64,000 bases of DNA from an uncultured archaeon (GTDB lineage Archaea > Iainarchaeota > Iainarchaeia > Iainarchaeales > 1-14-0-10-31-34): contig CAZSOZ010000001.1 of the NCBI GenBank assembly GCA_964608675.1, forward strand, positions 192,001 through 256,000, given 5' to 3'. The translations under genes were made by a program, and so were the position numbers. The stretch's first letter is position 1; every line of letters begins with the position of its first letter. Below are positions 2,969-60,798 of this stretch, in pieces. The notes beneath the pieces are model-generated. The model saw only the letters and a list, made by a program, of their open reading frames with translations. It was not told the DNA's origin and made no database searches.

Positions 2969-4798
2969 ATGCAATATGAAAACGTTTCTCCAAAAAAACT
3001 CTTGAATTCAGTTAAAAAAACACAAGAATACTCTTTAATAAAAAAAGCCACAGAACATGCTGAAAAAGAATTAACAGGAAAAAAATTATCAAACTGCCTT
3101 AACACAGCATACACAATAAACTCCCTTGCAATAAGAGGAAACATAATTTCAGCAACCTTATTGCATGAAACAAAATTAAATCAAGAAGAAATAAAAAAAG
3201 AATTCAACGAAGACACAAAAAAATTAGTTGAATCAATAAGAAAAATAAAAAAAATAGAATCACAATACAAAAACTTTGACTCAAAAACATTAAGCAAAAT
3301 AATTCTTGCAACAACCAAAGACGCAAGAACAATAATAATTATTCTGGCATCAAAACTTGCTGAATTAAGAAATGCAAAAAAAGAAGAAAAACACAAAGCA
3401 AAAATAGTACAGGAAGTATACCTCCCCATAAGCCAAAAACTAGGGTTAAACGAAATAAAATGGGAATTAGAAGACCTTGCATTCAAATTACTGCAAAAAA
3501 AAGAATACGATAAAATAAAATACAAATTAAAAAAGAAAAAAACAGAAAGAGAAAAAGAACTAAAAAAAATAATAAAAGAAATAAAAAAAACACTAAAAAA
3601 AGAAAAAATAAAAGCAGAAGTAATTGGAAGAACAAAAAATTTCGTTGGAATCCACAACAAAATGAAAAGAAAAAAATGCGGTTTAGAAGACCTCCATGAT
3701 TTAATTGCAGTAAGAATAATCTGCAACACAATAAAAGAATGCTATATTATTCTGGGAATAATTCATTCATTATATGAACCTTTACTGAATTCATTTGATG
3801 ACTATATTGCAAACCCCAAAGAAAATAATTACAAGTCAATTCACACAGACCTAAAAACAAAAGACAAACAGGTTTTTGAAGCACAAATAAGGACATGGGA
3901 AATGAACGCAGAAGCAGAAGAAGGCCTTCCTGCCCACTGGACATACAAACAAATAAAAAAAGACACAGAATTCGACGGAAAACTTATTTGGGCAAAACAA
4001 TTAATTGAATGGAACAAAAAAAACAAAACAAAAAACGTGCTGGATACAATAAAAATAGGGTTTGAAGAAAAAAAAATATTTACTTTAACCCCAAAAGCAG
4101 ACATAATTGAACTGCTCCCAAAATCAACTCCAATAGATTTTGCGTACTCAATTCATTCAGCAGTAGGAAACAAATGCAGTAAAGCAAAAGTAAACGGAAA
4201 AATAGTTCCCTTAGATTATCCGCTTGAAAATGGAGACATCATTGAAATAATAATTTCACCAAAACAGCACCCAAAAAGACAATGGCTTACCATAGCAAAA
4301 ACAACAAAAGCAAAAGCAAAAATAAGACAAGCATTAGAAATAACAGGACAAGAAAAAAAAAGAAAAAAAACAATAAAAACAATTCCAATAAAAATGACTC
4401 ATTCAATCAGAATATCAAAATGCTGCAATCCCCTCCCTGAAGATAAAATTGCCGCACTAAAAACAACTAAAAGAAAAATAGCAATACATAAAGAAAACTG
4501 CAGAAACATCTTAAGAGAAAACCCAAAAAAAATAATTCCAATAAGCTGGGAAATGATAGGAAAAAAAGAATTAACTGCAGAAATAAAAATAGAAGCAAAA
4601 GAAAAAGTAAATCTGCTTAAAGACATTCTTGATGCAATAGTTTTACTAAAAGGAAAAGTGATTGCAACAGAAACAAAAGTTGAAAACAAAAAAGTGATTT
4701 CAAAATTCACAATACAAGCAAAAAAACCACAGGCAATAAGCCGAATAATAGAAAAAATAAAAAAAATAGAAGGAATAAAAACAGTAAAAAGAAGCTAA
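2969..4798 (+). CDS. Long RelA/SpoT homolog: degenerate HD, synthetase, TGS, ZFD and ACT domains
   Basis: KWELEDLAF, DLIAVRI, DYIANPKENNYKSIH, EAQIRT, AHWTYK, TPIDFAYSIH and KCCNP motifs; HD motif reads LLHET. Confidence 0.92.
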   Translation: MQYENVSPKKLLNSVKKTQEYSLIKKATEHAEKELTGKKLSNCLNTAYTINSLAIRGNIISATLLHETKLNQEEIKKEFNEDTKKLVESIRKIKKIESQYKNFDSKTLSKIILATTKDARTIIIILASKLAELRNAKKEEKHKAKIVQEVYLPISQKLGLNEIKWELEDLAFKLLQKKEYDKIKYKLKKKKTEREKELKKIIKEIKKTLKKEKIKAEVIGRTKNFVGIHNKMKRKKCGLEDLHDLIAVRIICNTIKECYIILGIIHSLYEPLLNSFDDYIANPKENNYKSIHTDLKTKDKQVFEAQIRTWEMNAEAEEGLPAHWTYKQIKKDTEFDGKLIWAKQLIEWNKKNKTKNVLDTIKIGFEEKKIFTLTPKADIIELLPKSTPIDFAYSIHSAVGNKCSKAKVNGKIVPLDYPLENGDIIEIIISPKQHPKRQWLTIAKTTKAKAKIRQALEITGQEKKRKKTIKTIPIKMTHSIRISKCCNPLPEDKIAALKTTKRKIAIHKENCRNILRENPKKIIPISWEMIGKKELTAEIKIEAKEKVNLLKDILDAIVLLKGKVIATETKVENKKVISKFTIQAKKPQAISRIIEKIKKIEGIKTVKRS

Positions 4799-9156: not shown

Positions 9157-9246
9157 TCAAAAAAGCCTCCAACAAAAACAAAAAAAAAGAAAAAAAATAG
9201 AATTTTTTTATTAGACATAAATAATGATTGAAAAAAAGTCTTTTAA

Positions 9247-12197: not shown

Positions 12198-13538
12198 ATG
12201 TTAAAAGCTATTTCTCCGATAGACGGAAGATACGAAAGCCAAACAAAAGAATTACAAGAAATTTTCTCAGAATACGGAACGCAAAAATACAGAACAGAAA
12301 CTGAAATAAAATACCTGCTTTTTTTATCAAAAAAAAACATAATAAGAAAATTTACTGAAAAAGAAAAAAAAATTCTTAAAAACATTTATGAAAACTTCAA
12401 CCAAAAAGACTCAAAAGAAATAAAAAGAATAGAAAAAACCACAAACCACGATGTAAAAGCAGTTGAATACTTTATAAGAAAAAAAATAAAAAAAAGTTCA
12501 CTGAAAGACATTGAAAGTTATGTTCATTTTGGGCTGACATCAGAAGACATAAACAATCTGGCAAACTCAAAACAAATACAAAAAGGATTAGATTTATACA
12601 TAACTATTTGTTCTGCTTTGCACAAAAAACTAAAAGAAATTTCATTAAAAGAAAAAAACACTGCCATGCTTTCCCATACCCATGGCCAGCCAGCTTCCCC
12701 GACAACCTTTGGAAAAGAAACAGCAGTATTTGCTTCAAGAATAAAAGAAAGCCTTGAATTAATAAAAAAAATGAATCTGCCGGGAAAACTGAATTCTGCT
12801 TCAGGAAACTTTAATTCATTTTATGCTGCTTTTCCAGAAAAAAACTGGATTAAATTAAGCAAAGAATTCGTTGAAAGCCTTGGATTCGAACACAAAAAAT
12901 TAACCGTCCAAATAATTCCGCATGACAACATTTCAAGAATCTTAAATGAAATAAGCCTGCTGAACAGCATCATAATTAATCTGGATACAGATTTATGGTT
13001 TTACATAAGCAAAGAATACGTTTCACAAAAAAAAATAGGAACAGAAACAGGCAGTTCAGTTATGCCTCACAAAATAAATCCAATTCAATTTGAAAACAGT
13101 GAAGGAAACCTTGTTCTGGCAAACAATCTTCTGGATTTCTTAAGTTCAAGATTAATGAAAACAAGAATGCAAAGAGATTTAACTGACTCAACAATAAAAA
13201 GAAACTACGGAACAGCCTTTGGGCATTCAATAATAGGAATAAAAATGTGCTTAAAAGGACTAAACAGAATAAAACCAAACAAACAAAAAATGCTCGAAGA
13301 ACTCAAAAAAAACCCTGAAATATTAACAGAAGCAATCCAAACAATAATGAGAAAAGAAGGAAACACCCAAGCATACGAAAAACTCAAAAACATTTCAAGA
13401 GGAAAAAAAATAACATTAGAAGAACTAAAAAAATTCATAAAAAAAAGTTCATTAAGCCAAAAAGAAAAAAACAAGCTTATGAAATTAACTCCTGAAAAAT
13501 ATTTAGGAAAAGCAGAAGAACTCGCAAAAAGCAATTAA
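12198..13538 (+). CDS. purB: Adenylosuccinate lyase
   Basis: AISPIDGRY, TNHDVKAVEY and GSSVMPHKINP motifs. Confidence 0.95.
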   Translation: MLKAISPIDGRYESQTKELQEIFSEYGTQKYRTETEIKYLLFLSKKNIIRKFTEKEKKILKNIYENFNQKDSKEIKRIEKTTNHDVKAVEYFIRKKIKKSSLKDIESYVHFGLTSEDINNLANSKQIQKGLDLYITICSALHKKLKEISLKEKNTAMLSHTHGQPASPTTFGKETAVFASRIKESLELIKKMNLPGKLNSASGNFNSFYAAFPEKNWIKLSKEFVESLGFEHKKLTVQIIPHDNISRILNEISLLNSIIINLDTDLWFYISKEYVSQKKIGTETGSSVMPHKINPIQFENSEGNLVLANNLLDFLSSRLMKTRMQRDLTDSTIKRNYGTAFGHSIIGIKMCLKGLNRIKPNKQKMLEELKKNPEILTEAIQTIMRKEGNTQAYEKLKNISRGKKITLEELKKFIKKSSLSQKEKNKLMKLTPEKYLGKAEELAKSN

Positions 13539-16135: not shown

Positions 16136-17416
16136 CTACTTTTTGGGGGTTAATTCCTTCAATCCATTCAAATAAGGATGCAGAACTTTAGGAATTTTTA
16201 CTGCACCTTCTTTTGTCTGAAAGTTTTCCAAAATAAGCCTTAACATTCTGGAAGTAGCGACCATTGTGCTGTTTAAAGTGTGAACCAAATTTTTTTCGTT
16301 TTTAGAAAAATATTTTATGTTAAGCCTTCTGGACTGATAAGAACTACAATTAGAACAAGAAATTATTTCAATGTATTTTTTTTCTCTGGGAGAAAAACCT
16401 TCGATATCAAATTTTTTTGATGCAACCGTTCCTATGTCCCCAGTACAGACATTAACTGCCCTGAAAGGAATTTTTAATGCATCAACAAAATCTTCTGCAT
16501 TCTTCAAAAGTTCTAAATGAATTTTATTAGAATCTTCAGGCATGCAAAAAACAACCTGTTCAATTTTATTAAATTGATGAACTCTAAACAAGCCTCTTTC
16601 ATCCAAACCATGCTTTCCTATTTCTTTCCTGAAACAAGCTGAACTTCCCACAAGCTTTAAAGGAAGATCTTTTTCATTAAAAGTTTGGTTCCAATGCATT
16701 GCAACCAAAGGATGCTCAGAAGTAGCAATCAAATAAAGGTCTTGATTTTCTATTTTATACATTACTTCTTCAAAGTCATTCAAATCAGTTACGCCCGAAT
16801 AAGGTTGCCTGCGCATAAGAAAAGGAGGAACAACAAAATCAAAGCCTTTCTTTAAAAGCAAATCAACTGCAAAAAGATTTAAAGCGCGCTCAACCAAAGC
16901 CAAATCTCCTTTAAGAAAATAAAATCCCGCTCCAGAAATTTTAACTGCGTTTTCAAAATCCGCGCCATTTAATTCAACTGCAAGACTGCCATGGTGCTTT
17001 AATTCAAAATTAAAAGAAGGGAGCCTGCCTTTTTTCTTAATTTCCTTGTTATCTGAATCATCCTTTCCAAAAGGAACATCCCCCTCCAAAAGATTAGGAA
17101 TTTTAAAAAGAAGGCCTTCACAATCTTTCTTTAATAAAACAAGCATGTTTTCCTTTTCCCTGATTTTAATAGGAATTTCTTTTGCTTCCTTAAGTTTTTT
17201 TGACGCATCCTTTTTTTCTGCCAGCAGTCTTTTTATTTCAAAAGTAATTTGATTTCTTTTAGATCTAAGGTCTTCTGTTTCCTGAAGAATTTTTCTCATT
17301 TGTTTGTCTTTTTTAATTAATTCATCAAAAAGAAAAAGATATTTTTTATTCTGCCTTCTTTCAAGATTTTTTTTAACTAATTCAGGATTCTCTCTCAGCA
17401 ATTTTATATCAATCAT
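16136..17416 (-). CDS. serS: Serine--tRNA ligase
   Basis: N-terminal coiled coil; YLIATSEHP, FRKEIG, GLFRVHQFNKIEQ and HTLNST motifs. Confidence 0.95.
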   Translation of the reverse strand: MIDIKLLRENPELVKKNLERRQNKKYLFLFDELIKKDKQMRKILQETEDLRSKRNQITFEIKRLLAEKKDASKKLKEAKEIPIKIREKENMLVLLKKDCEGLLFKIPNLLEGDVPFGKDDSDNKEIKKKGRLPSFNFELKHHGSLAVELNGADFENAVKISGAGFYFLKGDLALVERALNLFAVDLLLKKGFDFVVPPFLMRRQPYSGVTDLNDFEEVMYKIENQDLYLIATSEHPLVAMHWNQTFNEKDLPLKLVGSSACFRKEIGKHGLDERGLFRVHQFNKIEQVVFCMPEDSNKIHLELLKNAEDFVDALKIPFRAVNVCTGDIGTVASKKFDIEGFSPREKKYIEIISCSNCSSYQSRRLNIKYFSKNEKNLVHTLNSTMVATSRMLRLILENFQTKEGAVKIPKVLHPYLNGLKELTPKK

Positions 17417-20140: not shown

Positions 20141-20297
20141 AGAGACCCCTCAATTCCACTATTCTTTTATATAATATAAAAGCATCTTTTATGTATATAT
20201 ATATACTATAATTAAATATAAATGTTTGCAAAAAATTTGTTTATTTTTAAATATTTTAAAAAATAGGCAAAAAAAGCAAAAAAAGAAAAAAATAGAA

Positions 20298-20603: not shown

Positions 20604-20849
20604 AGAAACACCTCAATAACTTAAATTAAATATTAACTCCTTTTAAATATATAAACTTTTGGGTTTAAAGATGAAAAAAACAAGGTTTTTTCGATAAATT
20701 TCTTCGGAAAAAAAGAAATATACATAACTGGCAATTTCTTGGGCTGTCTGATACAGTCCAAATAGAAACTAAATAGGCAAATATACATAATTTTTTAAGT
20801 TTTTTTGTTGTTTTTTCTTAATTAATAAAATTAGTGGAAGTAAAGGGAG

Positions 20850-21710
20850 TCAAAGGCTGTCTAAAGGGCTTTGCACTTTTTTTAGTTCGTTTGTTGAAAC
20901 AAAAGTGTATATTTGGGTTGTGGCAAGATTGCTGTGTCCGAGTAATTCCTGTATTTTTCTGATGTTTTCGCCTGATTCAAGAAGATGTGTGGCAAAACTA
21001 TGGCGCAGGACATGAGGTGTAACTTTTTTTGGGATTCCTGCTTTTTTTCCGTATTTTTTTACCATTCTTTCAATAGTGTCAGCAGTAATTGGTTTTCCGT
21101 TCTTTTTTGAAAAAACGAACTCGCTTTTAATTTTTTTTCTTTTTAAATATTTTTTAAGGTTATGAATCCATTTTTTTGAAAGAATTATTATTCTGTCTTT
21201 TTTTCCTTTTCCTCCTTGTACTCTTGCAAGTCCTTCTTTTAATTCAAGGTTTTCAACCCGCATTTTTGCGCATTCGCTTACCCTTACTCCGCTTGAATAA
21301 AGGAATTCAATTATTGTTCTGTCTCTTCCTGCTTTTGCTGATTTGATTAAAGATTTTACTTCTTTTTTTGTTAATATTGTTGGGAGTTTTTTTTCTTTTT
21401 TTGGGACTTTAATTTCATTAAGTATTTTGTTTTTTAGGACTGCTTCAAAAAAAAATTTTAGTGCCGAGTGGACAAGAGAAATAGATGTATTTGATAAATT
21501 TTCTTTTTCTTTTTTTAGTGCAATATATTTTACTAAGTCGTCTCTTGAAATTTGTTCAGGAGGGGTTTTTATTTTGCGGAAAAAATCCTCTAAATAACAC
21601 AAATACATTTTTAGGGTTCTCTCAGAATAACCAGAAATAATTAATTCTTCGCGTGTTTTCTGAATAAATTTTTTTTGTTCTTCTGAGAAACTTTCGTTTG
21701 GTTGTTCCAT
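20850..21710 (-). CDS. xerA: XerA-like tyrosine recombinase
   Basis: SAM-like N-terminus (YSERT..Y); catalytic GVRVSE, GKGKKDR, HVLRHSFATH, LGH and TTQIYT. Confidence 0.88.
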   Translation of the reverse strand: MEQPNESFSEEQKKFIQKTREELIISGYSERTLKMYLCYLEDFFRKIKTPPEQISRDDLVKYIALKKEKENLSNTSISLVHSALKFFFEAVLKNKILNEIKVPKKEKKLPTILTKKEVKSLIKSAKAGRDRTIIEFLYSSGVRVSECAKMRVENLELKEGLARVQGGKGKKDRIIILSKKWIHNLKKYLKRKKIKSEFVFSKKNGKPITADTIERMVKKYGKKAGIPKKVTPHVLRHSFATHLLESGENIRKIQELLGHSNLATTQIYTFVSTNELKKVQSPLDSL

Positions 21711-22690: not shown

Positions 22691-22715
22691 TTATTTCTAC
22701 ATAACTCTGGGTTGG

Positions 22716-29553: not shown

Positions 29554-29586
29554 TATTATACATAACTTTTTTTAGGAGGAAGTTAA

Positions 29587-31177: not shown

Positions 31178-31372
31178 ATGAAAAACAGAATCAAAGAATT
31201 TCGAGCAAAATACAATTTAACTTAGGAACAGCTGGCTAAAATAGTTAAAGTTCGAAGAGAAACTATTGTTTTTCTTGAACAAGGGAAATACAATCCTTTG
31301 CTTAAACTGGCTCACGATATAGCAAAAATTTTTAATGAGCCAATTGAAAAAATTTTTGAATTTGAAGAGTAA
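31178..31372 (+). pseudogene. XRE-family HTH regulator with an in-frame TAG
   Basis: [63 protein letters not shown]; TAG at 31223-31225 where LTQ is conserved; GGAGG RBS. Confidence 0.85.
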
Positions 31373-32546
31373 ATTTTTAGGAGTTCATTTCTACAGTTTT
31401 CGCCAAATAGTTTTTTTTTCGTCTATTGTTTGGATTTTAGATGATTCTTCATAGTTTGAATGCTGTCTTCTGGTTTAATGTTTTTGTTTGATATTTTGAT
31501 TGGACAGTCTTATTTATTTGAAAAACCAAGTTTTATACATAACTTAGAATCCTGTTCGTCTTATTCAATGGTTCTGTTGATTAAGCCTTCCAAAAGATTT
31601 ATCTGAATCAGCATAAAAAGCATGAAAAAAAGGGGAAACCAAGAATTCCGCTGAATATCTTGTGTATTGGCTTGATTTTGGCTGAAAATAGCTTAAATAT
31701 GGCTCATTTTTATTAGACATAACCCGTATAAGACACATTATACGTGTTTTCCTAGAGGGGACTTAATCAAAAAACGCGAAAAATCAGCTTTACTGGAAGC
31801 AAGGAGGGTACAGACAGGAAAATAAGCATCGGCAGATTAAGAGTTATGTATACAAATTGAGGCAAATTTAATACAGCTCAAAAAACATTAGCAAAATAGC
31901 TTTTCAGATAAAAAACTTCTCAAAATTAAAAAATTTCATAAAAAATTTTTATAAAAAAAAATTAAAATAAAATATTCTTTTCTTTTCACACAAATTCAAA
32001 AAAATCAGAAAACACAGGAAAAAAAAACAAAAAAAAGAAAAAAAGCTTTTTTGGGGCTTTTTAGTTAATTTAGTTCATACGAAGCAGACATTTTCTAAAG
32101 TTTTTTGCTTAATTCTTTAAATTCATAAAAAATATTGCTTTTTTTTAACCTTTTTTAATTTTTTTTTAGTTATTTGGTTTAATTAAGCTTTTTTAGGCAG
32201 TCAAATGCGTTTTTGGCTTGTTTTTTGGTTCTTTTGCTTTCCAGCAGGTTTATAACCCCCAACAACAAATAATTATGTATAATTTTGCTACATAACTATC
32301 GGGCTTTTGGGGTTTTTATTCTCTTTTCCGTGTTCTTTTCTGCTTTTTTTTTACTTATTTTGGGGTTTGATATTGATTTTGATTGTGGTTGAGGGTTGAA
32401 TGTTGGAACACGCAAATGCGGGATATGGAGTATTTTCTTTTTGCAAGGAAAAAAATTTGGGGCTGTTCTAATGGAAAATGCTAATGGATTCAAATAAAGG
32501 GTTTTTTTTAGTTAAATTAAAACAAGTTTATAAACAGTTATGTATA
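31373..32546. other. Large non-coding hub with inverted TATACATAACT motifs and an A-to-T strand switch (candidate origin/terminus)
   Basis: No credible ORF; motif or variants at 31534(+), 31714(+), 31842(-), 32273(-), 32289(+) and 32536(-); A-rich to T/G-rich transition at ~32045. Confidence 0.5.
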
Positions 32547-33720: not shown

Positions 33721-34500
33721 ATGAATTATCTTGATACTGCGGTTCTCGCTGCAAAAAAAGCAGGAAAAATTATTTCTTCTCATAGGGGGAAATTTACTGA
33801 TCTTTCAAAAGTTAAATATAAGGGAGAAAGGGATATTGTGACTGAAGTTGATTTTGAAGCAGAAAAAATCATTAAAGAAACAATTCTCAAAAGTTTTCCT
33901 TCTCATGAAATTCTTGCAGAGGAAACTCCAAGAGGTTATGAATTAGCTGACAATCTTTGGGTTGTGGATCCTTTGGACGGCACAGTTAATTTTGCTCACA
34001 ATTACCCTAATTTTTGTGTTTCTATTGCTTTTAAACAGCAGGAGCAGACTCTTGTTGGGGTAATTTTTAATCCGGTTTTGAATGAATTGTTTACTGCTGT
34101 TAAAGGAAAAGGCGCTTTTTTGAATGAAAAAAAAATTTTTGTTTCAAAAAACGCTGATTTAATTCGCATTCTGCTTAACACAGGTTTTTCTTATAATCGC
34201 GGAGAAAAAATGGAGTTTACTTTGAATGCAGTAAGAAGAATGCTTTATAAAATAAAAGACATTCGAAGAAGCGGTTCTGCAGCATTAGATTTAGCTTGTG
34301 TTGCCTGCGGAAGGACTGATGCTTATCTTGAATATCATTTAAAGCCGTGGGATTTATGTGCAGGAGCTTTATTGGTTGAAGAAGCAGGAGGAAAAGTTTC
34401 TGATCCGGCGGGCTCTCAATTAAAGTCCCTTCCAATTGACTGCTTTGCTTCAAACAGCTTAATTCATGAAAAGCTTTTAAAAATAATAAACGAAAAATAA
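33721..34500 (+). CDS. suhB: Inositol monophosphatase (SuhB family)
   Basis: WVVDPLDGTVNF, RRSGSAALD and WDLCAG..LVEEAGG motifs. Confidence 0.92.
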   Translation: MNYLDTAVLAAKKAGKIISSHRGKFTDLSKVKYKGERDIVTEVDFEAEKIIKETILKSFPSHEILAEETPRGYELADNLWVVDPLDGTVNFAHNYPNFCVSIAFKQQEQTLVGVIFNPVLNELFTAVKGKGAFLNEKKIFVSKNADLIRILLNTGFSYNRGEKMEFTLNAVRRMLYKIKDIRRSGSAALDLACVACGRTDAYLEYHLKPWDLCAGALLVEEAGGKVSDPAGSQLKSLPIDCFASNSLIHEKLLKIINEK

Positions 34501-34510
34501 TTATGTATAA

Positions 34511-37300: not shown

Positions 37301-39097
37301 TCATTTTTTTTCCATCATTTTTTTTGCTTTTTTTGTTATGCTTTCTGCGTCCATTCCAAATCTTTTTTTGATTTCTGCAGGAGCATCATAATCAATGTAG
37401 TCATCTGGAGCGCCAATTCTGTGCAGTTCAACATCTATTCCTTTTTCTTCAAGCATTTCTAATACTGCAGAACCAAATCCGCCAGGCAATACATTTTCTT
37501 CTATTGTGATTGCTTTTCCTGTTTTTTTCAGACTCTCAATTAACATTTTTTCATCTAATGGTTTTGCAAATCTTGCATTAATTACTTCTGCTGTAATTCC
37601 TTCTTTTTTTAGCAATGCTGCTGCTTCTTTTGTTTCTTTTAACATGAATCCAATACTTATTAATGAAATGTCTTTTCCTTCCTGAATTAATTCTGCTTTT
37701 CCTATTTCTAATGGTTTTGATTCTTTCATTTCAACTCCTATTGGAGTTCCTTTTGGGTACCTTACACTTATTGGTCCTTTGTCGTATTTGTATGCTGTTA
37801 AAACCATGTCTCCTAATTCGTTTTCGTCTTTTGGAGCCATTACAACCATGTTTGGAATAATTCTTAAATAACTTAAATCAAGTATTCCTCCTTGTGTTGG
37901 TCCGTCTCCTGTTATTGCAGATTTTGGAACCAAAAATTTTACTGGAAGATTCTGCAATGCTACATCATGAGCTATTTGGTCAAATCCTCTCTGTAAAAAA
38001 GGACTGTAAATTATTACAAAAGGTTTTACGCCTTCTGCTGCCAGTCCGGCTGCAAAAGTTACTGCGTGTTCTTCTGCTATTCCTACATCATAAAATCTTT
38101 CAGGGAATTTTTCTCCGAATTTAATTAGTCCTGTTCCTGCAGGCATTGCGGCTGTTATTGCAACTACTTTGTCGTCTTTTTCTGCTAATTTAATTACATC
38201 TTCTACTGCTGTTTTTTCAACTGAAACAGGTTTTTTTTTGGCAGGTTCTCCTGTTTCAATGTCGAATGCAGGGTGTTCGTGCCATCTTGCTTTGTCGTTT
38301 TCCATGTAAGGCATTCCTTTTCCTTTTATGGTTACTACGTGAAGCATTCTTGGCCCTGATAAATCTCTTATTCTTTCTAATTCGCTTACTAGTTTTTCTA
38401 CGTTGTGGCCGTCTATTGGTCCAAAATAATGTATTCCCATTTTTTCAAATATTGTTCCTACATCTCTTCTTGCTTTTTCTTCGTCTGCAAACATTGAAAG
38501 TTTTTTTAAGTGCTTGTACATTGCTCCTACATTTGGTGAAATGCTCATTTTGTTGTCATTTAAAATTATTATCATGTCTGTTTGGTTGTATCCAATGTTG
38601 TTTAATGCTTCATAACACATTCCTCCTCCTAAAGCGCCGTCGCCTGTTATTGCAAGTACTTCGTATTCTTTTTTGTTTCTTTTTCTTGCTTCAGCTATTC
38701 CCATGGCTCCGCTTAAAGCAGTTGAAGCATGTCCTGCACTCCATATATCATAAGGTGTTTCTCCTCTGACAGTAAATCTTGGGATTCCTTTTGGAATGCA
38801 GATTGTGTGAAAGTATTTTCTTCTTCCTGTTAAAATTTTGTGGGTATAACTTTGATGGCTTGTATCAAACAAAATTTTGTCTTCAGGGCAATTGAATACG
38901 TAATGCAAGGCAACAGTTAATTCCACTACTCCTAAGTTTGCTCCAATATGTCCTCCGTTTATTGAACAAGTGTGAAGCAAAACTTCTCTTATTTCTTTTG
39001 ATAATTCATTTAACTGTTCTACTTTTAATTTTTTTAAGTCTTCAGGACTGTCAATTTTTTCAAGTAATTTTGTTTTTGGAATATTGTTTTCTGCCAA
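37301..39097 (-). CDS. dxs: 1-deoxy-D-xylulose-5-phosphate synthase
   Basis: GGHIGANLGVVELT, HQSY.HKILTGR, GDGALGGG..EALNN, NDN, DVGIAEEHAV and DGPTQ motifs. Confidence 0.93.
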   Translation of the reverse strand: MAENNIPKTKLLEKIDSPEDLKKLKVEQLNELSKEIREVLLHTCSINGGHIGANLGVVELTVALHYVFNCPEDKILFDTSHQSYTHKILTGRRKYFHTICIPKGIPRFTVRGETPYDIWSAGHASTALSGAMGIAEARKRNKKEYEVLAITGDGALGGGMCYEALNNIGYNQTDMIIILNDNKMSISPNVGAMYKHLKKLSMFADEEKARRDVGTIFEKMGIHYFGPIDGHNVEKLVSELERIRDLSGPRMLHVVTIKGKGMPYMENDKARWHEHPAFDIETGEPAKKKPVSVEKTAVEDVIKLAEKDDKVVAITAAMPAGTGLIKFGEKFPERFYDVGIAEEHAVTFAAGLAAEGVKPFVIIYSPFLQRGFDQIAHDVALQNLPVKFLVPKSAITGDGPTQGGILDLSYLRIIPNMVVMAPKDENELGDMVLTAYKYDKGPISVRYPKGTPIGVEMKESKPLEIGKAELIQEGKDISLISIGFMLKETKEAAALLKKEGITAEVINARFAKPLDEKMLIESLKKTGKAITIEENVLPGGFGSAVLEMLEEKGIDVELHRIGAPDDYIDYDAPAEIKKRFGMDAESITKKAKKMMEKK

Positions 39098-39197
39098 TAA
39101 AACACCTCTTTTTTTTTGCTTTTAATCTAACAATAATCTAGCTCAAAGTATTTAAAGCTTACGTTAATTTAAAAACCATATTTCGTCAAAAAGCGAA

Positions 39198-39719
39198 TTA
39201 TTTCTTTTTCTTTTCTGTTATTTTTTTTATGTCTTTATGGATTGCGGTTACTACTGAAAAAACTTGTATTCCTTCTCCTCTTCCAAAAGGAGTAAGTTTT
39301 TCTCCTGTGGTTGCAATTATTCCTACTTGGTCTGGTTCTATTTTTAGTATTTCTGCTACTTTTTCTTTTATTTCATCTGAAATTGGGTCGATTTTTGGTT
39401 TTTTGCATTCGATTGTTATTCCAACAGTAGTAATAACATAATTCATTTCTTTTAGTTTTTTTAATGGTTCTTTTAAGTATTCTTTTGAATCAGTTATTCC
39501 TTCTTCTTTGCATAATTTGTCTGCATGATTTCCTAGGCTTTTCCAGCCGATTATTTGTGCAATTGAATTAAATAAAGAATGAAGTATTACGTCTGCATCT
39601 GAATTTCCTTTAAGGCCTCTTTCTCCTTTGATTTCTACTCCGCCTAAATACAGTTTTCTTTTTTCATGTACATGAGAAAACCTATGCGAATCTTGTCCTA
39701 ATCCTACTTTGAAAGGCAT
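39198..39719 (-). CDS. ispF: 2-C-methyl-D-erythritol 2,4-cyclodiphosphate synthase
   Basis: GLGQDSHRF, SDADVILH and ATTGEKL..FGRGEGI motifs. Confidence 0.92.
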   Translation of the reverse strand: MPFKVGLGQDSHRFSHVHEKRKLYLGGVEIKGERGLKGNSDADVILHSLFNSIAQIIGWKSLGNHADKLCKEEGITDSKEYLKEPLKKLKEMNYVITTVGITIECKKPKIDPISDEIKEKVAEILKIEPDQVGIIATTGEKLTPFGRGEGIQVFSVVTAIHKDIKKITEKKKK

Positions 39720-39762
39720 AATATCCCGCTAAATTATGTATAAAACATTTTTTATACGCTTC

Positions 39763-40461
39763 TTAATTCTGTTCCTCTTTTTCTATTATTTTTTCTGCTA
39801 ATTCCAGGTCTTCTTTTGTTGTAATTTTTATGTTGTCGTATGAACATTCAACAATTTTTATTTTTCCGTGAATTCTTTCAACTAATTGCACGTCGTCTGT
39901 TCCGTAAAATCCATCTTTGTGTGCTTTTTCAAATGCTTTTACTGCAATATGAAAAATTATTGCCTGAGGGGTTTGCATTTGCCATAATTCTTTTCTTTTT
40001 AGGGTTTCTTTTACAAGCAAATCTTCATTAACTCTTTTGATTGTGTCTTTAACTCTTTGTGCTGCAACGCTTGCCCCAAATTTTTTTGCTTCTTGTATGC
40101 ATTCTTTTATTGTTTTTTCTTTTACAAAAGGGTTAGCTGCATTATGAATTAATACAACATCTTCTTCTTTTGCTATTTCTTTTAGTTTTTTTATTCCGTT
40201 CCAGACAGAATCCTGCCTTTTTTCCCCGCCTTCCACAACAGCAATAATTTTTTTGAATTTTTCTCTTTCAGTTATTTTTTTTATTTCAGCAAAATCTTCT
40301 TTTGCAGCAGAAATAATTATTCCTTTAATTTTTTCTGTTTTATCAAATACTTTAATTGTTCTTGCAATTATTTCCCTGCCTTTTATTTTGATGAAGACCT
40401 TGTTTTTTTCGTGCCCCATCCTGATTCCTTTTCCGCCTGCGCATACAACAACATAATTCAT
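39763..40461 (-). CDS. ispD: MEP cytidylyltransferase
   Basis: AGGKG.RMG, GG.KRQDSV, QTPQ, TDD and NIKITT.EDL motifs. Confidence 0.92.
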   Translation of the reverse strand: MNYVVVCAGGKGIRMGHEKNKVFIKIKGREIIARTIKVFDKTEKIKGIIISAAKEDFAEIKKITEREKFKKIIAVVEGGEKRQDSVWNGIKKLKEIAKEEDVVLIHNAANPFVKEKTIKECIQEAKKFGASVAAQRVKDTIKRVNEDLLVKETLKRKELWQMQTPQAIIFHIAVKAFEKAHKDGFYGTDDVQLVERIHGKIKIVECSYDNIKITTKEDLELAEKIIEKEEQN

Positions 40462-40522
40462 TTTTTTTTCCCTCTTTTATTATTGCCTCTTCAAAGTATT
40501 AAATTTTTTGTTTTTTTTTGGT

Positions 40523-40960
40523 TTATAGTTTTTTGTGGCTTGAAAACTTTTTTGGCGTTTTTTCAAATGAAATTATTTTGTGTGAAAAAATCCTTGCTTT
40601 TTCCAGAATTTTTCCTGTTTTAGTTTTTCCAATTTTTGCGCTTGTTTTGAATTTTTTTGACATTCTGTTGAATTTTAAATTTAATTTTTGGTTTCCTTTA
40701 ATATAAATTATTACTTTACTTCTGATTGACATTAAAATTGCTTTTGTTACCGGTTTTTTGTTTTTCTTTTTGATTTTTTTTGCAGCTAGTTTGGCTATTG
40801 CAGTAATTATATTTGTTTTGGTTATTTCTTCTGCACTGAGGTTTTTGAATTCTTTTGGGGGGCTGGCATTAACTAAATTGAGCATTCCTTTTCTTTTGAA
40901 ACCGAATTTGTTGAAATATTCATGCACGCTTTCTTTTATGATTTGTTCTGTTTTGTCCAT
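40523..40960 (-). CDS. Basic hypothetical protein within the MEP cluster
   Basis: Co-oriented between dxr and ispD; Lys-rich; no family recognised. Confidence 0.5.
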   Translation of the reverse strand: MDKTEQIIKESVHEYFNKFGFKRKGMLNLVNASPPKEFKNLSAEEITKTNIITAIAKLAAKKIKKKNKKPVTKAILMSIRSKVIIYIKGNQKLNLKFNRMSKKFKTSAKIGKTKTGKILEKARIFSHKIISFEKTPKKFSSHKKL

Positions 40961-40977
40961 TTTTTTTCCTGATTTTT

Positions 40978-42138
40978 TTATTCTTCTTCAATTATTTTTC
41001 TTGTTTTTTCTCTTGCTTTTTTGTCTGCTTCCAATACGGTTTCAATTGAATCAGCTTTTTTGTTTTTGTGTTCGTCGATTACTTTTTTGATGATTTCAGG
41101 GATTTTTCCGTAAACAATTTTTTTGTCTAAAAAAGCATATACAGCAATCTCATTTGCTGCATTCATTGCTGAAGGAAGTGTTCCTCCTTTTTTTCCTGCT
41201 TCAAAAGCGTATTTTAAGCAGGGAAAATTTTCATAATCAGGGGCTTCAAAAGTAAGTTGTTTTGCTTTAATTAAATCAAGTTTTGGAAAGTTATTTGGAA
41301 TTCTTTTTGGGTAGCTTAAAGCATATTGGATTGGCATGCGCATATCGTGTGTTCCAATTTGCGCCATAATGCTTCCGTCTACAAACTCTATCATTGAATG
41401 AATTAAACTTTGAGGATGTACTATTACTTCTATTTCTTCAAAATTTAAATCATATAACCATTTTGCTTCTATTACTTCTAAGCCTTTATTCATTAATGTT
41501 GAGGAATCAATTGTTATTTTTGCTCCCATGCTCCAGGTTGGATGTCCTAAAGCTTGTTCTGGAGTAGAATTATAGAATTCTTTTCTTTTTTTTCCTTTGA
41601 ACGGCCCGCCAGAACAGGTAATAAGCACTCTGTTTACTTTGTTTCTTTCTTCTCCGTTTAAACATTGAAATAAAGCTGAATGCTCTGAATCAATAGGCAT
41701 CAAAGTAATGCCTTTTTCTTTTACTGCTTTCATTATTGGCTGGCCTCCGGCAACCAAAGTTTCTTTGTTTGCTAAAGCAATGTTTTTTCCTTTTTTGATT
41801 GCTTTCATTGTAGGTTGCATTCCAATTGAGCCTACAACTGCTATGATTGTTTGTTCAACTTCCTGCATTACTGCAATTTCTTTCAGTCCTTTCATTCCTG
41901 AAACAATTTCGACTTCTTTTCCAATTTTTTTTTCTAATTCTTCTGCTGAGTTTTCTTCAAATAAACAGGCTTTTTCTGGCTTAAATTCTTTTATTTGTTC
42001 AATCATTTTTTCTACTTCGTTGAATGCAGCCAACCCAATTATTTTGAATTCTTTTTGATGGTTTTTAACTACATCCAAAGTCTGGGTGCCAATGCTTCCT
42101 GTTGAACCCAAAATACTTATTTTCTTCATTTTAATCAT
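40978..42138 (-). CDS. dxr: 1-deoxy-D-xylulose-5-phosphate reductoisomerase
   Basis: LGSTGSIG, LANKE, PIDSEHSA, HPTWSMGAKITIDS and NAANE motifs. Confidence 0.95.
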   Translation of the reverse strand: MIKMKKISILGSTGSIGTQTLDVVKNHQKEFKIIGLAAFNEVEKMIEQIKEFKPEKACLFEENSAEELEKKIGKEVEIVSGMKGLKEIAVMQEVEQTIIAVVGSIGMQPTMKAIKKGKNIALANKETLVAGGQPIMKAVKEKGITLMPIDSEHSALFQCLNGEERNKVNRVLITCSGGPFKGKKRKEFYNSTPEQALGHPTWSMGAKITIDSSTLMNKGLEVIEAKWLYDLNFEEIEVIVHPQSLIHSMIEFVDGSIMAQIGTHDMRMPIQYALSYPKRIPNNFPKLDLIKAKQLTFEAPDYENFPCLKYAFEAGKKGGTLPSAMNAANEIAVYAFLDKKIVYGKIPEIIKKVIDEHKNKKADSIETVLEADKKAREKTRKIIEEE

Positions 42139-46961: not shown

Positions 46962-47169
46962 CTTTTAGAATAACACAGAAATCTTATTTATTCTTTGTGC
47001 AAAAAAAAAAACAGTTATTTATGTATAATTTTTTGTTTTTTTATTAGTTTTCTTTAATGCAAACCTTTTTATTTGAGTTAAGGAGTATATTATTTGCAGT
47101 GTTTTTACAGCTTTTTTTCACGCAGCTGCTGCATAATTATGAAGAAATCATGCAATTAAGTTGAGTTAT

Positions 47170-59899: not shown

Positions 59900-60798
59900 A
59901 GTATTTGAAGGACTCTGTCGCAGAACTGGCTTAATGAATTAACTACTCCTTTATGTTCTTCTGATTTGACCATTAAAAGAACTCCTTTCATTTTCCAGTC
60001 CCTTAGTTTTCCTATAACTAAATGAATAAATCTTTCAACTGAAGCAATATCGTTGTAAATTAACAAAGTGCTAATTGAATCAAAAACCAAAAATTTAGGT
60101 TTTTCTTTTTGTTTAACATATACTTCATCTATTGCAACACTTAATGCAGTTAAATCTCGAGGAGATTCAATGAATTCAACGTTAGGATTAAAAGAAGCTT
60201 CTTTTCCTGTTCCTTTGCTTATTGCGTCAACAAAAATTAGTTTTTCTATATCTATTTTTTCTCTTTTAAGTGTTTCTTTCATGAAGTCAAAAGACCTATT
60301 CAAAGTTATGTATAATCCTTTTCCTTGTGTGTGGTTTATTAACAGTCTGATTAATTCGTAATTTATTTTTGAATAATTTGTTGGTTCCACTAAAAGCAGT
60401 GCAGTGAATTGTTCTTTTGGCAGTTCTTCTAAATATCTTAAAATTGTTAAGTCTATTCCTCTTCTCGGGCTTATTAATTCCTGCAGTGCTTCTTCTGGAC
60501 GCATTTCTTTTTTTAAATCAGTTTTCATTTCAATGTTTTTTTTTCTTTTGTCTTTTTTTGTTACATAGGTTCTTATCTGTTTTTCAGGTTTTGTCAGAAG
60601 TTTTTCCAGTTCTTTAATTGAATCACCGTCTTTTCCGTTTTTTTTTGCTTCTTTGATTATTTCTTTTTTTCTTTCTTTTCCCAGGCTCTTTATTTGTTCT
60701 GTTAATTTCTGAAATCCTTCTTTTTTTTTTGCCTTCTTTTTTTTATTTTCTTTTTTCTTTTTTCCTTTTTTCTTGCTTTTCTTTTTTTTCTTTTTCAT
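59896..60798 (-). CDS. Inactive KaiC-like ATPase-fold protein with poly-Lys N-terminus
   Basis: YITLNR, FVDAIS, SPRDLT.LS, VFDSISTLLIYN and FCD motifs; paralog of 34511..35119. Confidence 0.7.
   Translation of the reverse strand: MKKKKKKSKKKGKKKKENKKKKAKKKEGFQKLTEQIKSLGKERKKEIIKEAKKNGKDGDSIKELEKLLTKPEKQIRTYVTKKDKRKKNIEMKTDLKKEMRPEEALQELISPRRGIDLTILRYLEELPKEQFTALLLVEPTNYSKINYELIRLLINHTQGKGLYITLNRSFDFMKETLKREKIDIEKLIFVDAISKGTGKEASFNPNVEFIESPRDLTALSVAIDEVYVKQKEKPKFLVFDSISTLLIYNDIASVERFIHLVIGKLRDWKMKGVLLMVKSEEHKGVVNSLSQFCDRVLQIL

What the first reader, a model, noticed from the sequence alone, without database searches (positions are those of the whole stretch)
31373..32546. Polarised 11-mer TATACATAACT flips orientation at a 1.15-kb non-coding hub: candidate undescribed chromosome-organising site
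Seen: the exact 11-mer occurs on the + strand at 12595, 20719, 29557 and 31534, and reverse-complemented (AGTTATGTATA) at 31842, 32536 and 60304. All + copies lie left of ~31.7 kb and all - copies right. The 9-mer core adds 20782(+), 32273(-), 34501(-), 39734(-) and 47019(-), with an exception at 20189(-). Variants occur at 22698(+) and 32289(+, against the polarity), and an identical 16-mer TTTTTATTAGACATAA at 9205 and 31707. Nearly all copies are intergenic and they are densest in the hub, where two copies form an inverted pair ~310 bp apart. A rough iid estimate gives well under one exact 11-mer per window, versus 7 found by eye. Known: the motif resembles the XerD arm of E. coli dif (TTATGTTAAAT) and is one mismatch from the DnaA box TTATNCACA; it is not an archaeal ORB. 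Inference: a binding site for an initiator, fork-trap or segregation protein, or XerA half-sites, organised about a replichore boundary.
Basis: partly seen in the sequence, partly recalled or inferred. Interest (0 to 1): 0.85.

Follow-up and report, generated by a model that had tools for sequence, protein, structure and literature searches.

The report
Polar DNA motif converging on archaeal dif
In this small DPANN archaeon an 11-letter DNA word is arranged in two opposed arrays that point at the site where joined sister chromosomes are probably separated, much like the guide sequences of bacteria, although the bacterial proteins that read such sequences are missing.

Summary
TATACATAACT occurs 7 times (0.02 expected). 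At up to 1 mismatch, 14 of 14 copies point at the hub. Genome-wide it is the most over-represented 11-mer after tRNA words. All 12 exact copies lie on the A-rich strand.

The hub sits at a sharp AT-skew inversion. It holds a single-copy, conserved 28-bp dif-like site (31721-31748; 11+6+11), 176 bp and 93 bp from the innermost convergent copies. XerA is encoded 11 kb away.

The motif-dif-motif module recurs at similar distances in 7 other genomes of the family and, more loosely spaced, in 2 of other families of the order (Diapherotrites/Iainarchaeum relatives). In one complete relative, GC skew places it at the terminus. In another, it lies opposite the Cdc6 side, though its three copies there are not convergent.

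Orientation follows the replichore, not neighbouring genes. No FtsK, Tus or RTP was found.

Best reading: binding sites of an unknown factor, working like KOPS (guidance towards dif) or Ter (fork trap). "Initiator" and "XerA half-sites" are not.

No RNA, coverage or binding data could be obtained. Novelty: new variant of a known kind. Interest 0.74.

The parts
31721..31748 (.). dif-like core site AACCCGTATAA | GACACA | TTATACGTGTT (11-bp arms, 6-bp spacer, arms 10 of 11 complementary)
   Evidence: Sequence. Conserved in the 4-genome and 8-genome alignments. The pattern GTATAANNNACATTATNCG at up to 1 mismatch hits once in G000 and once in each of 8 relatives, twice (both strands of one palindrome) in G030, with 2 control hits in 31 genomes. 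The G017 hit is judged false.
31534..31544 (+). innermost left motif copy, pointing at dif (176 bp away)
   Evidence: Orthologous copy at -198 to -249 from the dif centre in G005, G001, G003 and G007, and at -139 in G030.
31842..31852 (-). innermost right motif copy, pointing at dif (93 bp away)
   Evidence: Orthologous copy at +108 to +130 in G005, G001, G003, G006, G007 and G008, and at +173 in G030.
32271..32281 (-). second right copy (TATACATAATT)
   Evidence: A copy at +505 to +564 from the dif centre in G000, G005, G001, G006, G007 and G008.
32536..32546 (-). third right copy, at the edge of the hub
   Evidence: No counterpart in G005.
31795..31808 (.). conserved G-rich block GGAAGCAAGGAGGG (GGAAG-N3-GG(G/A)GG in relatives) between dif and the right copy
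   Evidence: Present at the same offset in 8 of 8 genomes extracted (alignment). Function unknown.
31374..32539 (.). the non-coding hub. With the broken XRE ORF it forms the longest gap between called genes in the genome (1481 bp). A-tracts (about 31880-32045) change to T-tracts (about 32046-32250) inside it
   Evidence: No Rfam match at E<=1.
29557..29567 (+). left-array copy, 3 nt after one gene and 21 nt before the PEBP gene
22696..22706 (+). left-array copy (TCTACATAACT). The orthologous place in G005 holds the exact 11-mer
20719..20792 (+). tandem pair of copies 63 bp apart, between the PRC-barrel gene start and the xerA stop, antisense to both genes
   Evidence: The pair and its spacing are conserved in G005, G002 and G004 while the DNA between the copies has diverged. 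A pair 62 bp apart is also seen in G023.
20850..21710 (-). xerA, the only tyrosine recombinase on the main contigs
   Evidence: NCBIfam recomb_XerA_Arch, 281 bits against a cut-off of 220. Pfam hit. Genome scan.
16756..16766 (+). left-array copy with 1 mismatch (TATACATTACT), inside the seryl-tRNA synthetase ORF; may be chance
12595..12605 (+). left-array copy inside the adenylosuccinate lyase gene (sense strand)
34499..34509 (-). right-array copy, 1 nt after the stop of a KaiC-like gene
39732..39742 (-). right-array copy between ispD and ispF. Position conserved in G005
47017..47027 (-). right-array copy upstream of the PfkB kinase gene. Position conserved in G005
60304..60314 (-). right-array copy. 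Not conserved in G005

Best explanation
The hub is the replication-terminus and chromosome-dimer-resolution locus of a Diapherotrites/Iainarchaeum-type (DPANN) archaeon. It holds the XerA recombination site dif at 31721-31748.

TATACATAACT (core T[A/C]TACATAA[C/T]) is the recognition site of a sequence-specific, orientation-sensitive DNA-binding factor that is not yet identified. About 30-35 copies per genome, mostly intergenic, form two opposed arrays on the leading strand of each replichore. They point at dif, grow denser towards it, and bracket it at conserved distances.

The most likely working: as with KOPS and FtsK, the sites load or orient a DNA motor, or another dif-directed activity, so that it always moves towards dif. 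This brings the two dif copies of a dimer together and restricts XerA to resolution.

Shown: over-representation, polarity, the switch at a skew inversion, the dif-like site, conservation across families, and independence from gene orientation.

Inferred: that the palindrome is bound by XerA, that the boundary is the terminus, that a protein reads the motif, and the direction-giving mechanism.
For: (1) Over-representation and polarity. The 11-mer is 12 forward to 0 reverse on the A-rich strand, with 0.11 and 0.09 expected under an order-3 Markov model. The 10-mer is 17:0. At up to 1 mismatch 35 of 41 are forward, while at exactly 2 mismatches the counts are background (169:152). It is the top 11-mer by observed/expected after two tRNA T-arm words.

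(2) Convergence and clustering. On C1, 18 of 19 sites at up to 1 mismatch point at position 223,735. The window holds 14 of 41 sites in 5.9% of the DNA (binomial 4.5e-8), and 7 of 12 exact copies (1.5e-6).

(3) The switch coincides with the AT-skew inversion.

(4) A dif-like 11+6+11 site lies between the innermost pair. It is single-copy and conserved in G001, G005, G006, G007, G008, G015, G016 and G030. Variants are found in G023 and G009. XerA is encoded 11 kb away.

(5) The module geometry is conserved: copies at about -200, +110 to +130 and +505 to +565.

(6) G023 (complete genome): T[AC]TACATAAC is 10 towards dif to 1 away in the 540 kb sampled, and 10 of 11 lie at 825-981 kb around dif at 964 kb. 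The cumulative GC-skew minimum is at about 280 kb.

(7) G009 (complete genome): the dif-like site and three 10-mer copies lie at 320 kb, where genes and GC skew converge. Cdc6 is at 818 kb.

(8) 16S rRNA, the L2 cluster, RpoB, EF1A, EF2 and two further GTPase genes (7 of 7 loci tested) lie on the strand that runs towards the hub.

(9) Purifying selection. 8 of 13 window sites are at the orthologous place in G005 at about 77% nucleotide identity. The xerA-side pair is an island of identity in diverged DNA.

(10) Gene orientation does not explain polarity. Only 12 of 22 intergenic copies are co-oriented with the gene downstream, and 7 of 22 are antisense to both neighbours.
Against: No FtsK was found: only sub-threshold P-loop matches. 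No reader protein is identified.

The density (about 1 per 35 kb overall, 1 per 5 kb near dif) and the intergenic bias are unlike KOPS.

In G009 the three copies at dif are not convergent: 1 points towards dif and 2 away. G015 and G016 have the dif-like site but no motif at up to 1 mismatch within 1.5 kb.

AT skew at four-fold sites has the opposite sign relative to the leading strand in G009 compared with G023 and G000. Skew alone therefore does not fix origin against terminus in G000, where GC skew at four-fold sites is nil. tRNA genes show no strand bias (17:13).

Some gene-linked words are also polar (GTGATTAAATG 12:1). About half of the intergenic copies do sit 14-60 nt upstream of a co-oriented gene.

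Gene calls were my own crude ORF picks. The genome is a 53-contig bin, and the smaller contigs were oriented by their AT skew.
Confidence: 0.45

Rival explanations
1. Ter-like polar replication-fork barriers. A terminator protein unrelated to Tus or RTP binds the 11-mer, lets forks enter the dif region and stops them leaving, so that termination happens at dif.
For: Two opposed groups flank the terminus. Copy number is low and the word is long and specific. Sites are mostly intergenic and extend 100 kb or more to each side. These features fit Ter sites better than KOPS.
Against: No Tus and no RTP homologue was found. Conserved distances of the inner copies from dif are not needed for a trap. 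No fork trap is known in archaea (my recollection of the field; no search was made for it).
Confidence: 0.2
2. Accessory or architectural sites of the XerA/dif locus. A protein bound at the copies around dif builds a synapse that makes XerA resolve but not form dimers (as the accessory sequences of cer and psi do), or stalls SMC complexes to form a domain boundary, as at the dif-surrounding region of Thermococcus kodakarensis. The distant copies would be secondary.
For: Stereotyped offsets of the inner copies and of the GGAAG..GGGGG block. Clustering at dif even in G009, where polarity is not kept. A tandem pair beside xerA itself. T. kodakarensis dif lies in a 1.9-kb intergenic region that forms an SMC-dependent boundary independently of XerA and dif (PMC11840125, section 8 read). 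Thermococcales dif sites are flanked by AT-rich inverted repeats (PMC2958812, passages read).
Against: It does not by itself explain the 12:0 strand polarity of copies up to hundreds of kb away or on other contigs.
Confidence: 0.15
3. A promoter or operator element (TATA-like box or transcription-factor site) of a set of genes and small RNAs that happen to be co-oriented with replication.
For: The word is TATA-like and usually follows an A-rich stretch. 12 of 22 intergenic copies precede a co-oriented gene, several by 14-60 nt. Positions are conserved upstream of ispF and pfkB. Some gene-start words are also polar.
Against: 7 of 22 intergenic copies are antisense to both neighbours, and the distances to start codons vary. 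The downstream genes are functionally unrelated. The general upstream signal of this genome is TTTAAA-like at -31 to -24, with no C. Five copies lie in a hub with no ORF, no Rfam hit at E<=1 and no consensus RNA fold. Overall gene-strand bias is only 57%.
Confidence: 0.1
4. The hub is the replication origin, and the motif is an initiator (Orc1/Cdc6) site comparable to ORB elements.
For: Longest intergenic region in the genome, AT-rich tracts, inverted repeats and a sharp skew switch. If the T>A-on-leading-strand rule seen in G009 held here, the hub would be the origin. The conserved block TTTAGTGGAAGT resembles the Pyrococcus mini-ORB TTCCAGTGGAACT at 10 of 13 positions (sequence from PMC1904270, passages read).
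Against: The 'TTCC' core that the paper calls perfectly conserved is missing. There is one such block, not a cluster, and no mini-ORB cluster anywhere in the genome. Both Orc1/Cdc6 genes are 90 and 150 kb away. The site between the copies has dif geometry. In G023 and G009 the module lies opposite the GC-skew minimum and the Cdc6 side. 7 of 7 highly expressed loci would be head-on to replication.
Confidence: 0.07

Closest known systems
KOPS / FtsK (E. coli) and related SRS / SpoIIIE guide motifs
   Same: An over-represented oriented word on the leading strand of both replichores. Its polarity inverts at dif and its density rises towards dif.
   Different: Here the word is an 11-mer that is AT-rich rather than a G-rich 8-mer. 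It is about 100 times rarer and mostly intergenic, and it also brackets dif at fixed distances. No FtsK or gamma domain is found in the genome.
ASPS, Archaea Short Polarized Sequences (Cortez et al. 2010, PMC2958812; passages read)
   Same: Skewed words in archaea lacking FtsK whose cumulative skew peaks near dif.
   Different: ASPS are 4-mers (GTTG, GTTC, TGGT), that is, compositional skew words. The present word is a specific 11-mer with 12:0 polarity and positional conservation, which implies a dedicated binding protein.
Ter sites with Tus (E. coli) or RTP (B. subtilis)
   Same: A few tens of long polar sites or fewer, in two opposed groups around the terminus.
   Different: No Tus or RTP homologue. 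The sites abut dif. Fork arrest was not tested.
XerA/dif of Thermococcales and the dif-surrounding boundary locus of T. kodakarensis (PMC2958812; PMC11840125, section 8 read)
   Same: A single XerA, and a 28-bp dif of 11+6+11 in a long intergenic region in the terminus area. Conserved AT-rich repeats flank dif.
   Different: A different phylum and a different dif sequence. The flanking repeat here is also spread along both replichores with strict polarity, which was not reported there.
Accessory sequences of cer/psi (ArgR, PepA) and XerD-binding XDS sites in the B. subtilis terminus (as described in PMC5357621 and PMC11840125; passages read)
   Same: Extra protein-binding sites next to or around a Xer core site that control the outcome, or unload SMC, in the terminus region.
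   Different: Those are not polar arrays over whole replichores. XDS are dif half-site look-alikes, whereas this motif shares only the inner ATAA with the local dif arms.

Membership tests
Xer/dif chromosome dimer resolution site (archaeal XerA type) | Two imperfect 11-bp inverted repeats separated by a 6-bp spacer | tested here: met
   31721-31748: arms 10 of 11 complementary, spacer GACACA (sequence; alignments). Definition taken from PMC2958812 and PMC5357621 (passages read).
Xer/dif chromosome dimer resolution site (archaeal XerA type) | Single copy, intergenic, conserved among related genomes | tested here: met
   One hit per genome in 9 of the 10 genomes that matched (of 31 searched), two strands of one palindrome in G030, and 2 hits of the backwards control. 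The G017 hit lies in coding DNA away from any skew switch and is discounted. Looser variants in G023 and G009 were found by eye and by pattern. At 2 mismatches the looser pattern is no better than its control.
Xer/dif chromosome dimer resolution site (archaeal XerA type) | [quoted passage not shown] | tested here: met
   G000: AT-skew maximum. G030: skew flips within 10 kb of the site. G023: flips between the 960 kb and 980 kb samples, opposite the GC-skew minimum at about 280 kb. G009: zone of gene and GC-skew convergence, opposite Cdc6. That this boundary is the terminus and not the origin is inferred for G000.
Xer/dif chromosome dimer resolution site (archaeal XerA type) | A cognate XerA recombinase is encoded | tested here: met
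   Window 20850-21710: NF040815 recomb_XerA_Arch, 281 bits against a cut-off of 220. It is the only tyrosine recombinase on the main contigs.
Xer/dif chromosome dimer resolution site (archaeal XerA type) | XerA binds and recombines the site | not testable with these tools
   Needs EMSA and plasmid recombination assays.
KOPS-type guide motifs | Over-represented word, strand-skewed by replichore, polarity inverting at dif | tested here: met
   Relatives.
KOPS-type guide motifs | Read by the gamma domain of an FtsK/SpoIIIE translocase | tested here: not met
   PF01580 gives only sub-threshold P-loop matches (best 20.1 bits against a cut-off of 24). These belong to two T2SSE ATPases and one HerA-like ATPase. 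The genome is 94% complete.
KOPS-type guide motifs | High density throughout coding DNA | tested here: not met
   About 35 sites per 1.09 Mb. 22 of 35 9-mer copies are intergenic against 10% intergenic DNA.
Ter / Tus or RTP fork trap | Polar sites in two opposed groups flanking the terminus | tested here: met
   C1: 8 '+' and 1 '-' left of dif; 0 '+' and 10 '-' right of it.
Ter / Tus or RTP fork trap | Tus or RTP terminator protein | tested here: not met
   PF05472 and PF02334: no match at E<=0.01.
Ter / Tus or RTP fork trap | Orientation-dependent fork arrest | not testable with these tools
   Needs 2D gels or replication profiling.
Archaeal origin (ORB / mini-ORB cluster with DUE) | Several ORB or mini-ORB repeats with conserved TTCC and GAA cores, flanking an AT-rich region, usually beside orc1/cdc6 | tested here: not met
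   One mini-ORB-like block that lacks TTCC, and no cluster of TTCC..TGGAA words anywhere. Orc1/Cdc6 genes lie at 90 and 150 kb with no large intergenic region beside the one examined. The AT-rich tracts are present.

The most novel reading that the evidence does not exclude
DPANN archaea of this order have a dedicated direction-giving system for the chromosome terminus that evolved independently of FtsK/KOPS and Tus/Ter. An unknown protein reads T[A/C]TACATAAC in one orientation, and either drives DNA towards dif or arrests forks that leave it.

One candidate that my data neither support nor exclude is the order-wide HerA-like ATPase. It has at least 844 residues and a winged-helix-like C-terminal tail (G000:C8:310-2844), an architecture that recalls the FtsK motor plus gamma domain.
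Probability: 0.3. Interest if true: 0.9.

Novelty: new variant of a known kind. Interest (0 to 1): 0.74.

Why it matters
How archaea direct chromosome dimer resolution and replication termination without FtsK or Tus is an open question. So far only weak 4-mer skews (ASPS) and unexplained repeats flanking dif have been reported.

This finding offers a long, specific and perfectly polar word. It converges on a dif-like site, is conserved across at least four families of the order, and is simple enough for pull-downs, DAP-seq and in vitro XerA assays. The question becomes directly testable.

It also gives a practical marker for the terminus in fragmented DPANN bins. It shows too that Orc1/Cdc6 genes need not mark the skew boundaries in this group.

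Tried and rejected
A maximal-order Markov test was uninformative, because the sub-words carry the same skew. I replaced it with models of order 1, 3 and 5.

A scan for dif-like head-to-head pairs of the motif itself found nothing at the hub. My first palindrome scan with a conservation filter missed the real site. It only emerged from the alignment.

Search for the origin:
- No large intergenic region or ORB-like repeats beside the orc1 gene at C1:314 kb.
- The divergent region at C2:69.8-70.2 kb has no clear repeats.
- Genome-wide scans for local 12-mer repeat clusters and for mini-ORB-like words found no cluster.
- In G023 the AT-rich divergent gap at the GC-skew minimum has two pairs of direct repeats, but nothing I can call an ORB.
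- The origin of G000 is therefore only located to C2 at about 70-94 kb by skew.

The XRE protein as reader was rejected as unlikely, since its gene carries a stop codon in G000 while the array is intact.

The HerA-like tail occurs in 29 of 31 genomes, so its distribution does not discriminate. Its winged-helix hits are below threshold (E 0.03-0.06). No structure was predicted.

The G017 'dif' hit was rejected as coding DNA with no skew switch. The G009 pattern hit at 546,921 was rejected because the control gave more hits than the pattern.

Rfam found nothing in the hub, and the RNAalifold energy was 0 on both strands.

Literature: no paper in the library combines DPANN with XerA or 'dif site' (the 10 listed of 14 hits, ranked first, had 0 occurrences of DPANN). 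No paper on long polar motifs in archaea other than ASPS appeared (listing only). Supplementary figures of PMC2958812 (dif logos, flanking repeats) could not be seen and may bear on how similar the Thermococcales flanks are.
Full report
**1. The observation**

The exact 11-mer TATACATAACT occurs 7 times in the window at the coordinates and strands given. Dinucleotide shuffles predict 0.02. With one mismatch allowed there are 14 copies against 0.70 expected: the 7 on the + strand all lie left of 31545 and the 7 on the - strand all lie right of 31841. The 9-mer core copies, the exception at 20189(-), the variants and the repeated 16-mer are all present.

The window is G000:C1:192001-256000, in a bin of 1.207 Mb and 53 contigs. 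The small high-GC contigs look foreign.

**2. Genome-wide behaviour**

Only 12 exact copies exist in the genome, and 7 of them are in this window.

I oriented the main contigs (1.089 Mb) so that the A-rich strand reads forward. The results were:
- 11-mer: 12 forward, 0 reverse (0.11 and 0.09 expected under an order-3 Markov model).
- 10-mer TATACATAAC: 17:0.
- 9-mer: 31:4. The reverse count equals the chance expectation, so the whole excess is on one strand.
- Up to 1 mismatch: 35 of 41 forward. Exactly 2 mismatches: 169:152, which is background.

Ranked by observed over expected, among all 11-mers with at least 8 copies, only two tRNA T-arm words stand higher.

On contig C1, 18 of 19 sites at up to 1 mismatch point at position 223,735. 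The window holds 14 of the 41 sites in 5.9% of the DNA (binomial 4.5e-8).

A caution: the small contigs were oriented by their AT skew. The word itself is nearly AT-balanced (5 A, 4 T), so this is not circular.

**3. The hub is a replichore boundary**

In 5-kb bins, AT skew on C1 is positive in nearly all bins left of 225 kb and negative in nearly all bins to the right. The cumulative maximum falls in the bin that holds the hub. A single opposite switch lies on C2 at about 70-94 kb.

Splitting the skew into a coding part and a replichore part gives a replichore AT skew of 0.25 at four-fold sites and 0.15 in intergenic DNA. There is no GC skew at four-fold sites. 57% of coding bases lie on the A-rich strand.

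**4. What lies between the innermost copies**

I aligned the roughly 310-370 bp between the convergent inner pair from G000 and three congeners. This exposed a conserved palindrome, AACCCGTATAA|GACACA|TTATACGTGTT, at 31721-31748. It has 11-bp arms (10 of 11 complementary) and a 6-bp spacer, which is the geometry that defines dif sites (definition from PMC2958812 and PMC5357621, passages read).

A pattern made from it hits once per genome in G000, G001, G005, G006, G007, G008, G015 and G016. It hits both strands of one palindrome in G030. The backwards control gave 2 hits in 31 genomes. The hit in G017 lies in coding DNA without a skew switch, and I discount it.

The only tyrosine recombinase on the main contigs lies 11 kb away. 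It scores as archaeal XerA: 281 bits against a cut-off of 220.

**5. A stereotyped module**

When each locus is oriented by the asymmetry of the dif-like site, motif copies sit at the following offsets from its centre:
- Left copy on '+': -198 to -249 in G000, G005, G001, G003 and G007; -139 in G030.
- Right copy on '-': +108 to +130 in G000, G005, G001, G003, G006, G007 and G008; +173 in G030.
- Second right copy on '-': +505 to +564 in G000, G005, G001, G006, G007 and G008.

A G-rich block, GGAAG-N3-GG(G/A)GG, sits at a constant offset in 8 of 8 genomes. G015 and G016 have the palindrome but no motif at up to 1 mismatch within 1.5 kb.

A tandem pair of copies 63 bp apart beside the xerA stop codon is conserved in G005, G002 and G004, while the DNA between the copies has diverged. 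A pair 62 bp apart occurs in G023.

Between G000 and G005 (genes about 72-82% identical in DNA), 8 of the 13 9-mer sites of the window are at the orthologous place. Two of the remaining five lie in stretches that do not align.

**6. Relatives**

All five congeners carry 7-10 exact copies, against 0-2 of the backwards control. G007 carries 15, and G010 and G015 carry 6 each.

Nine contigs hold both orientations. On seven of them the '+' copies precede the '-' copies: G000 C1, G001 C36, G003 C30, G004 C127, G005 C9, G018 C16 and G020 C6. The two exceptions are G005 C2 and the single circular contig of G023.

On G005 C9, seven '+' 9-mers are followed by six '-' and one '+', with the change at 93.5 kb.

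Record titles of the nearest XerA loci name Candidatus Diapherotrites or Iainarchaeum, that is DPANN.

**7. Origin or terminus?**

This is inferred, and the evidence is not unanimous.

For the terminus:
- The dif-like site itself.
- 16S rRNA, the L2 cluster, RpoB, EF1A, EF2 and two further GTPase genes (7 of 7 loci tested) lie on the strand that runs towards the hub.
- In the complete genome G023, GC skew, also at four-fold sites, is positive from about 283 kb to about 930 kb. Its cumulative minimum is at 278-283 kb. Both skews change between the samples at 960 and 980 kb, where GCTGTATAA|TAGCAG|TTATACGGC lies (964,005). That site is flanked by TCTACATAACT(+), the G-rich block and TCTACATAACA(-).
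- In the 540 kb of G023 that I sampled, T[AC]TACATAAC is 10 towards the site and 1 away, and 10 of the 11 lie at 825-981 kb.
- In the complete genome G009, Cdc6 is at 818 kb. Genes and GC skew diverge from there and converge at 300-400 kb. GGTCGGCATAA|TATCTC|TTATGCCGAAA lies at 319,970 with three 10-mer copies within 700 bp.
- A published Diapherotrites genome has its skew-defined origin beside cdc6 (PMC5905446, passages read).

Against, or neutral:
- In G009 the leading strand is T-rich at four-fold sites, whereas in G023 and G000 it would be A-rich. The sign of AT skew is therefore lineage-specific and cannot decide for G000.
- tRNA genes are 17:13.
- The hub has origin-like looks: the longest gap between called genes, AT tracts, and one block resembling a mini-ORB at 10 of 13 positions. 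However, that block lacks the TTCC core, and no cluster exists anywhere.
- In G000, G005 and G023, Orc1/Cdc6 lies 90-125 kb from the module and not at a skew switch.

I put the terminus reading at about 0.8.

**8. Is the polarity only gene orientation?**

No.
- Of 22 intergenic 9-mer copies, 12 precede a co-oriented gene, 12 follow one, and 7 are antisense to both neighbours. By contrast, 19 of the 22 follow the replichore.
- Distances to start codons vary, and the genes downstream are unrelated: PEBP, IspF, PfkB and KaiC-like.
- The genome's general upstream signal is TTTAAA-like at -31 to -24.
- The hub gives no Rfam match at E<=1 and no consensus RNA fold.

Still, some gene-start words are polar too (12:1 and 16:2). 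My gene calls are crude, and no RNA data could be had. The promoter rival keeps 0.1.

**9. Mechanism**

The facts call for an orientation-sensitive DNA-binding factor tied to dif. I favour oriented loading or steering of a dif-directed activity, which is KOPS-like (0.45). Next come a Ter-like fork trap (0.2) and an accessory or boundary architecture of the dif locus (0.15).

FtsK, Tus and RTP were not found (the genome is 94% complete).

A HerA-like ATPase of at least 844 residues, with a weakly winged-helix-like tail, is present in 29 of 31 genomes of the order. It is a lead only.

In G009 the copies at dif are not convergent. There the accessory reading fits better than guidance.

**10. Known relatives and novelty**

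The closest described things are:
- KOPS.
- The archaeal 4-mer ASPS.
- The AT-rich repeats flanking Thermococcales dif (PMC2958812).
- The SMC boundary at the 1.9-kb dif-surrounding region of T. kodakarensis (PMC11840125, section 8).

None is a long, specific, perfectly polar word spread over both replichores of an archaeon. No paper in the library combines DPANN with XerA or dif.

I file the dif-like site as a new member of a known kind, and the polar array as a new variant of a known kind.

**11. Limits**

- There are no binding, RNA or coverage data.
- G023 was only sampled (540 kb of 1,241 kb for the word counts).
- The relatives are kin, so counts across them are not independent.
- Supplementary figures of the cited papers were not available.

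Noticed in passing
window 31179-31373 (+): A 64-codon XRE-type helix-turn-helix ORF next to the hub has an in-frame TAG (about 31224) where three congeners encode Q (NLTQEQLA). It is either a pseudogene or a strain variant in G000. The gene neighbours the dif module in G005, lies a few kb from it in G003, and is also present in G004.
   Followed up: partly
window 37301-42138 (-): Bacterial-type MEP isoprenoid pathway genes (Dxs, IspF, IspD, Dxr) in an archaeon, and a RelA/SpoT homologue at 2969-4798. Both are unusual for archaea.
   Followed up: no
G000:C1:314,076-315,275 and C1:~74 kb; G005:C9:1.3 kb; G023:C1:840.6 kb: Orc1/Cdc6 genes do not sit at either skew switch. The better-scoring one lies about 90-125 kb from the dif module in three genomes, with almost no intergenic DNA beside it in G000.
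   Followed up: partly
whole genome; G009 and G023 samples: Very strong replichore AT skew at four-fold sites (0.25) with no GC skew in G000. Relative to the leading strand, the sign is opposite in G009 (T-rich) and in G023 (A-rich, with G>C).
   Followed up: partly
window 31795-31808 and ~20829-20848: G-rich block GGAAG-N3-GG(G/A)GG at a fixed offset from dif in 8 of 8 genomes. A similar TTAGTGGAAGTAAAGGGAG lies just past the xerA stop. It resembles a mini-ORB without its TTCC core. Function unknown.
   Followed up: partly
G030:C1:40-171 kb (L032-L038): A second polar word, GGCTCACAAAA (12 towards the dif-like site, 0 away; GCTCACAAAAA 17:1), in a genome of another family.
   Followed up: no
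G000:C8:310-2844 (L049): HerA-like ATPase (DUF87 + HerA_C) of at least 844 residues, with a K/E-rich N-terminus and a C-terminal tail giving weak TrmB and Penicillinase_R winged-helix hits. Single copy in 25 of the 29 genomes (of 31 in the order) where it was found. Not next to nurA, mre11 or rad50 on the side of the gene that is assembled.
   Followed up: partly
window 31707-31722 and 9205-9220: Identical 16-mer TTTTTATTAGACATAA. The hub copy contains a one-mismatch motif variant (TAGACATAAC) that overlaps the left dif arm by two bases. This is not conserved in relatives.
   Followed up: partly
window 20189-20197 (-): The one copy of the 9-mer that points away from dif (TATATATACATAAAAG) is conserved at the same place in G005. 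It is probably an unrelated TATA-rich element.
   Followed up: partly
G000 contigs C10, C16-C52: Short contigs of 40-68% GC in a 31% GC bin, two with their own integrases (C36, C52). Probably contamination.
   Followed up: no
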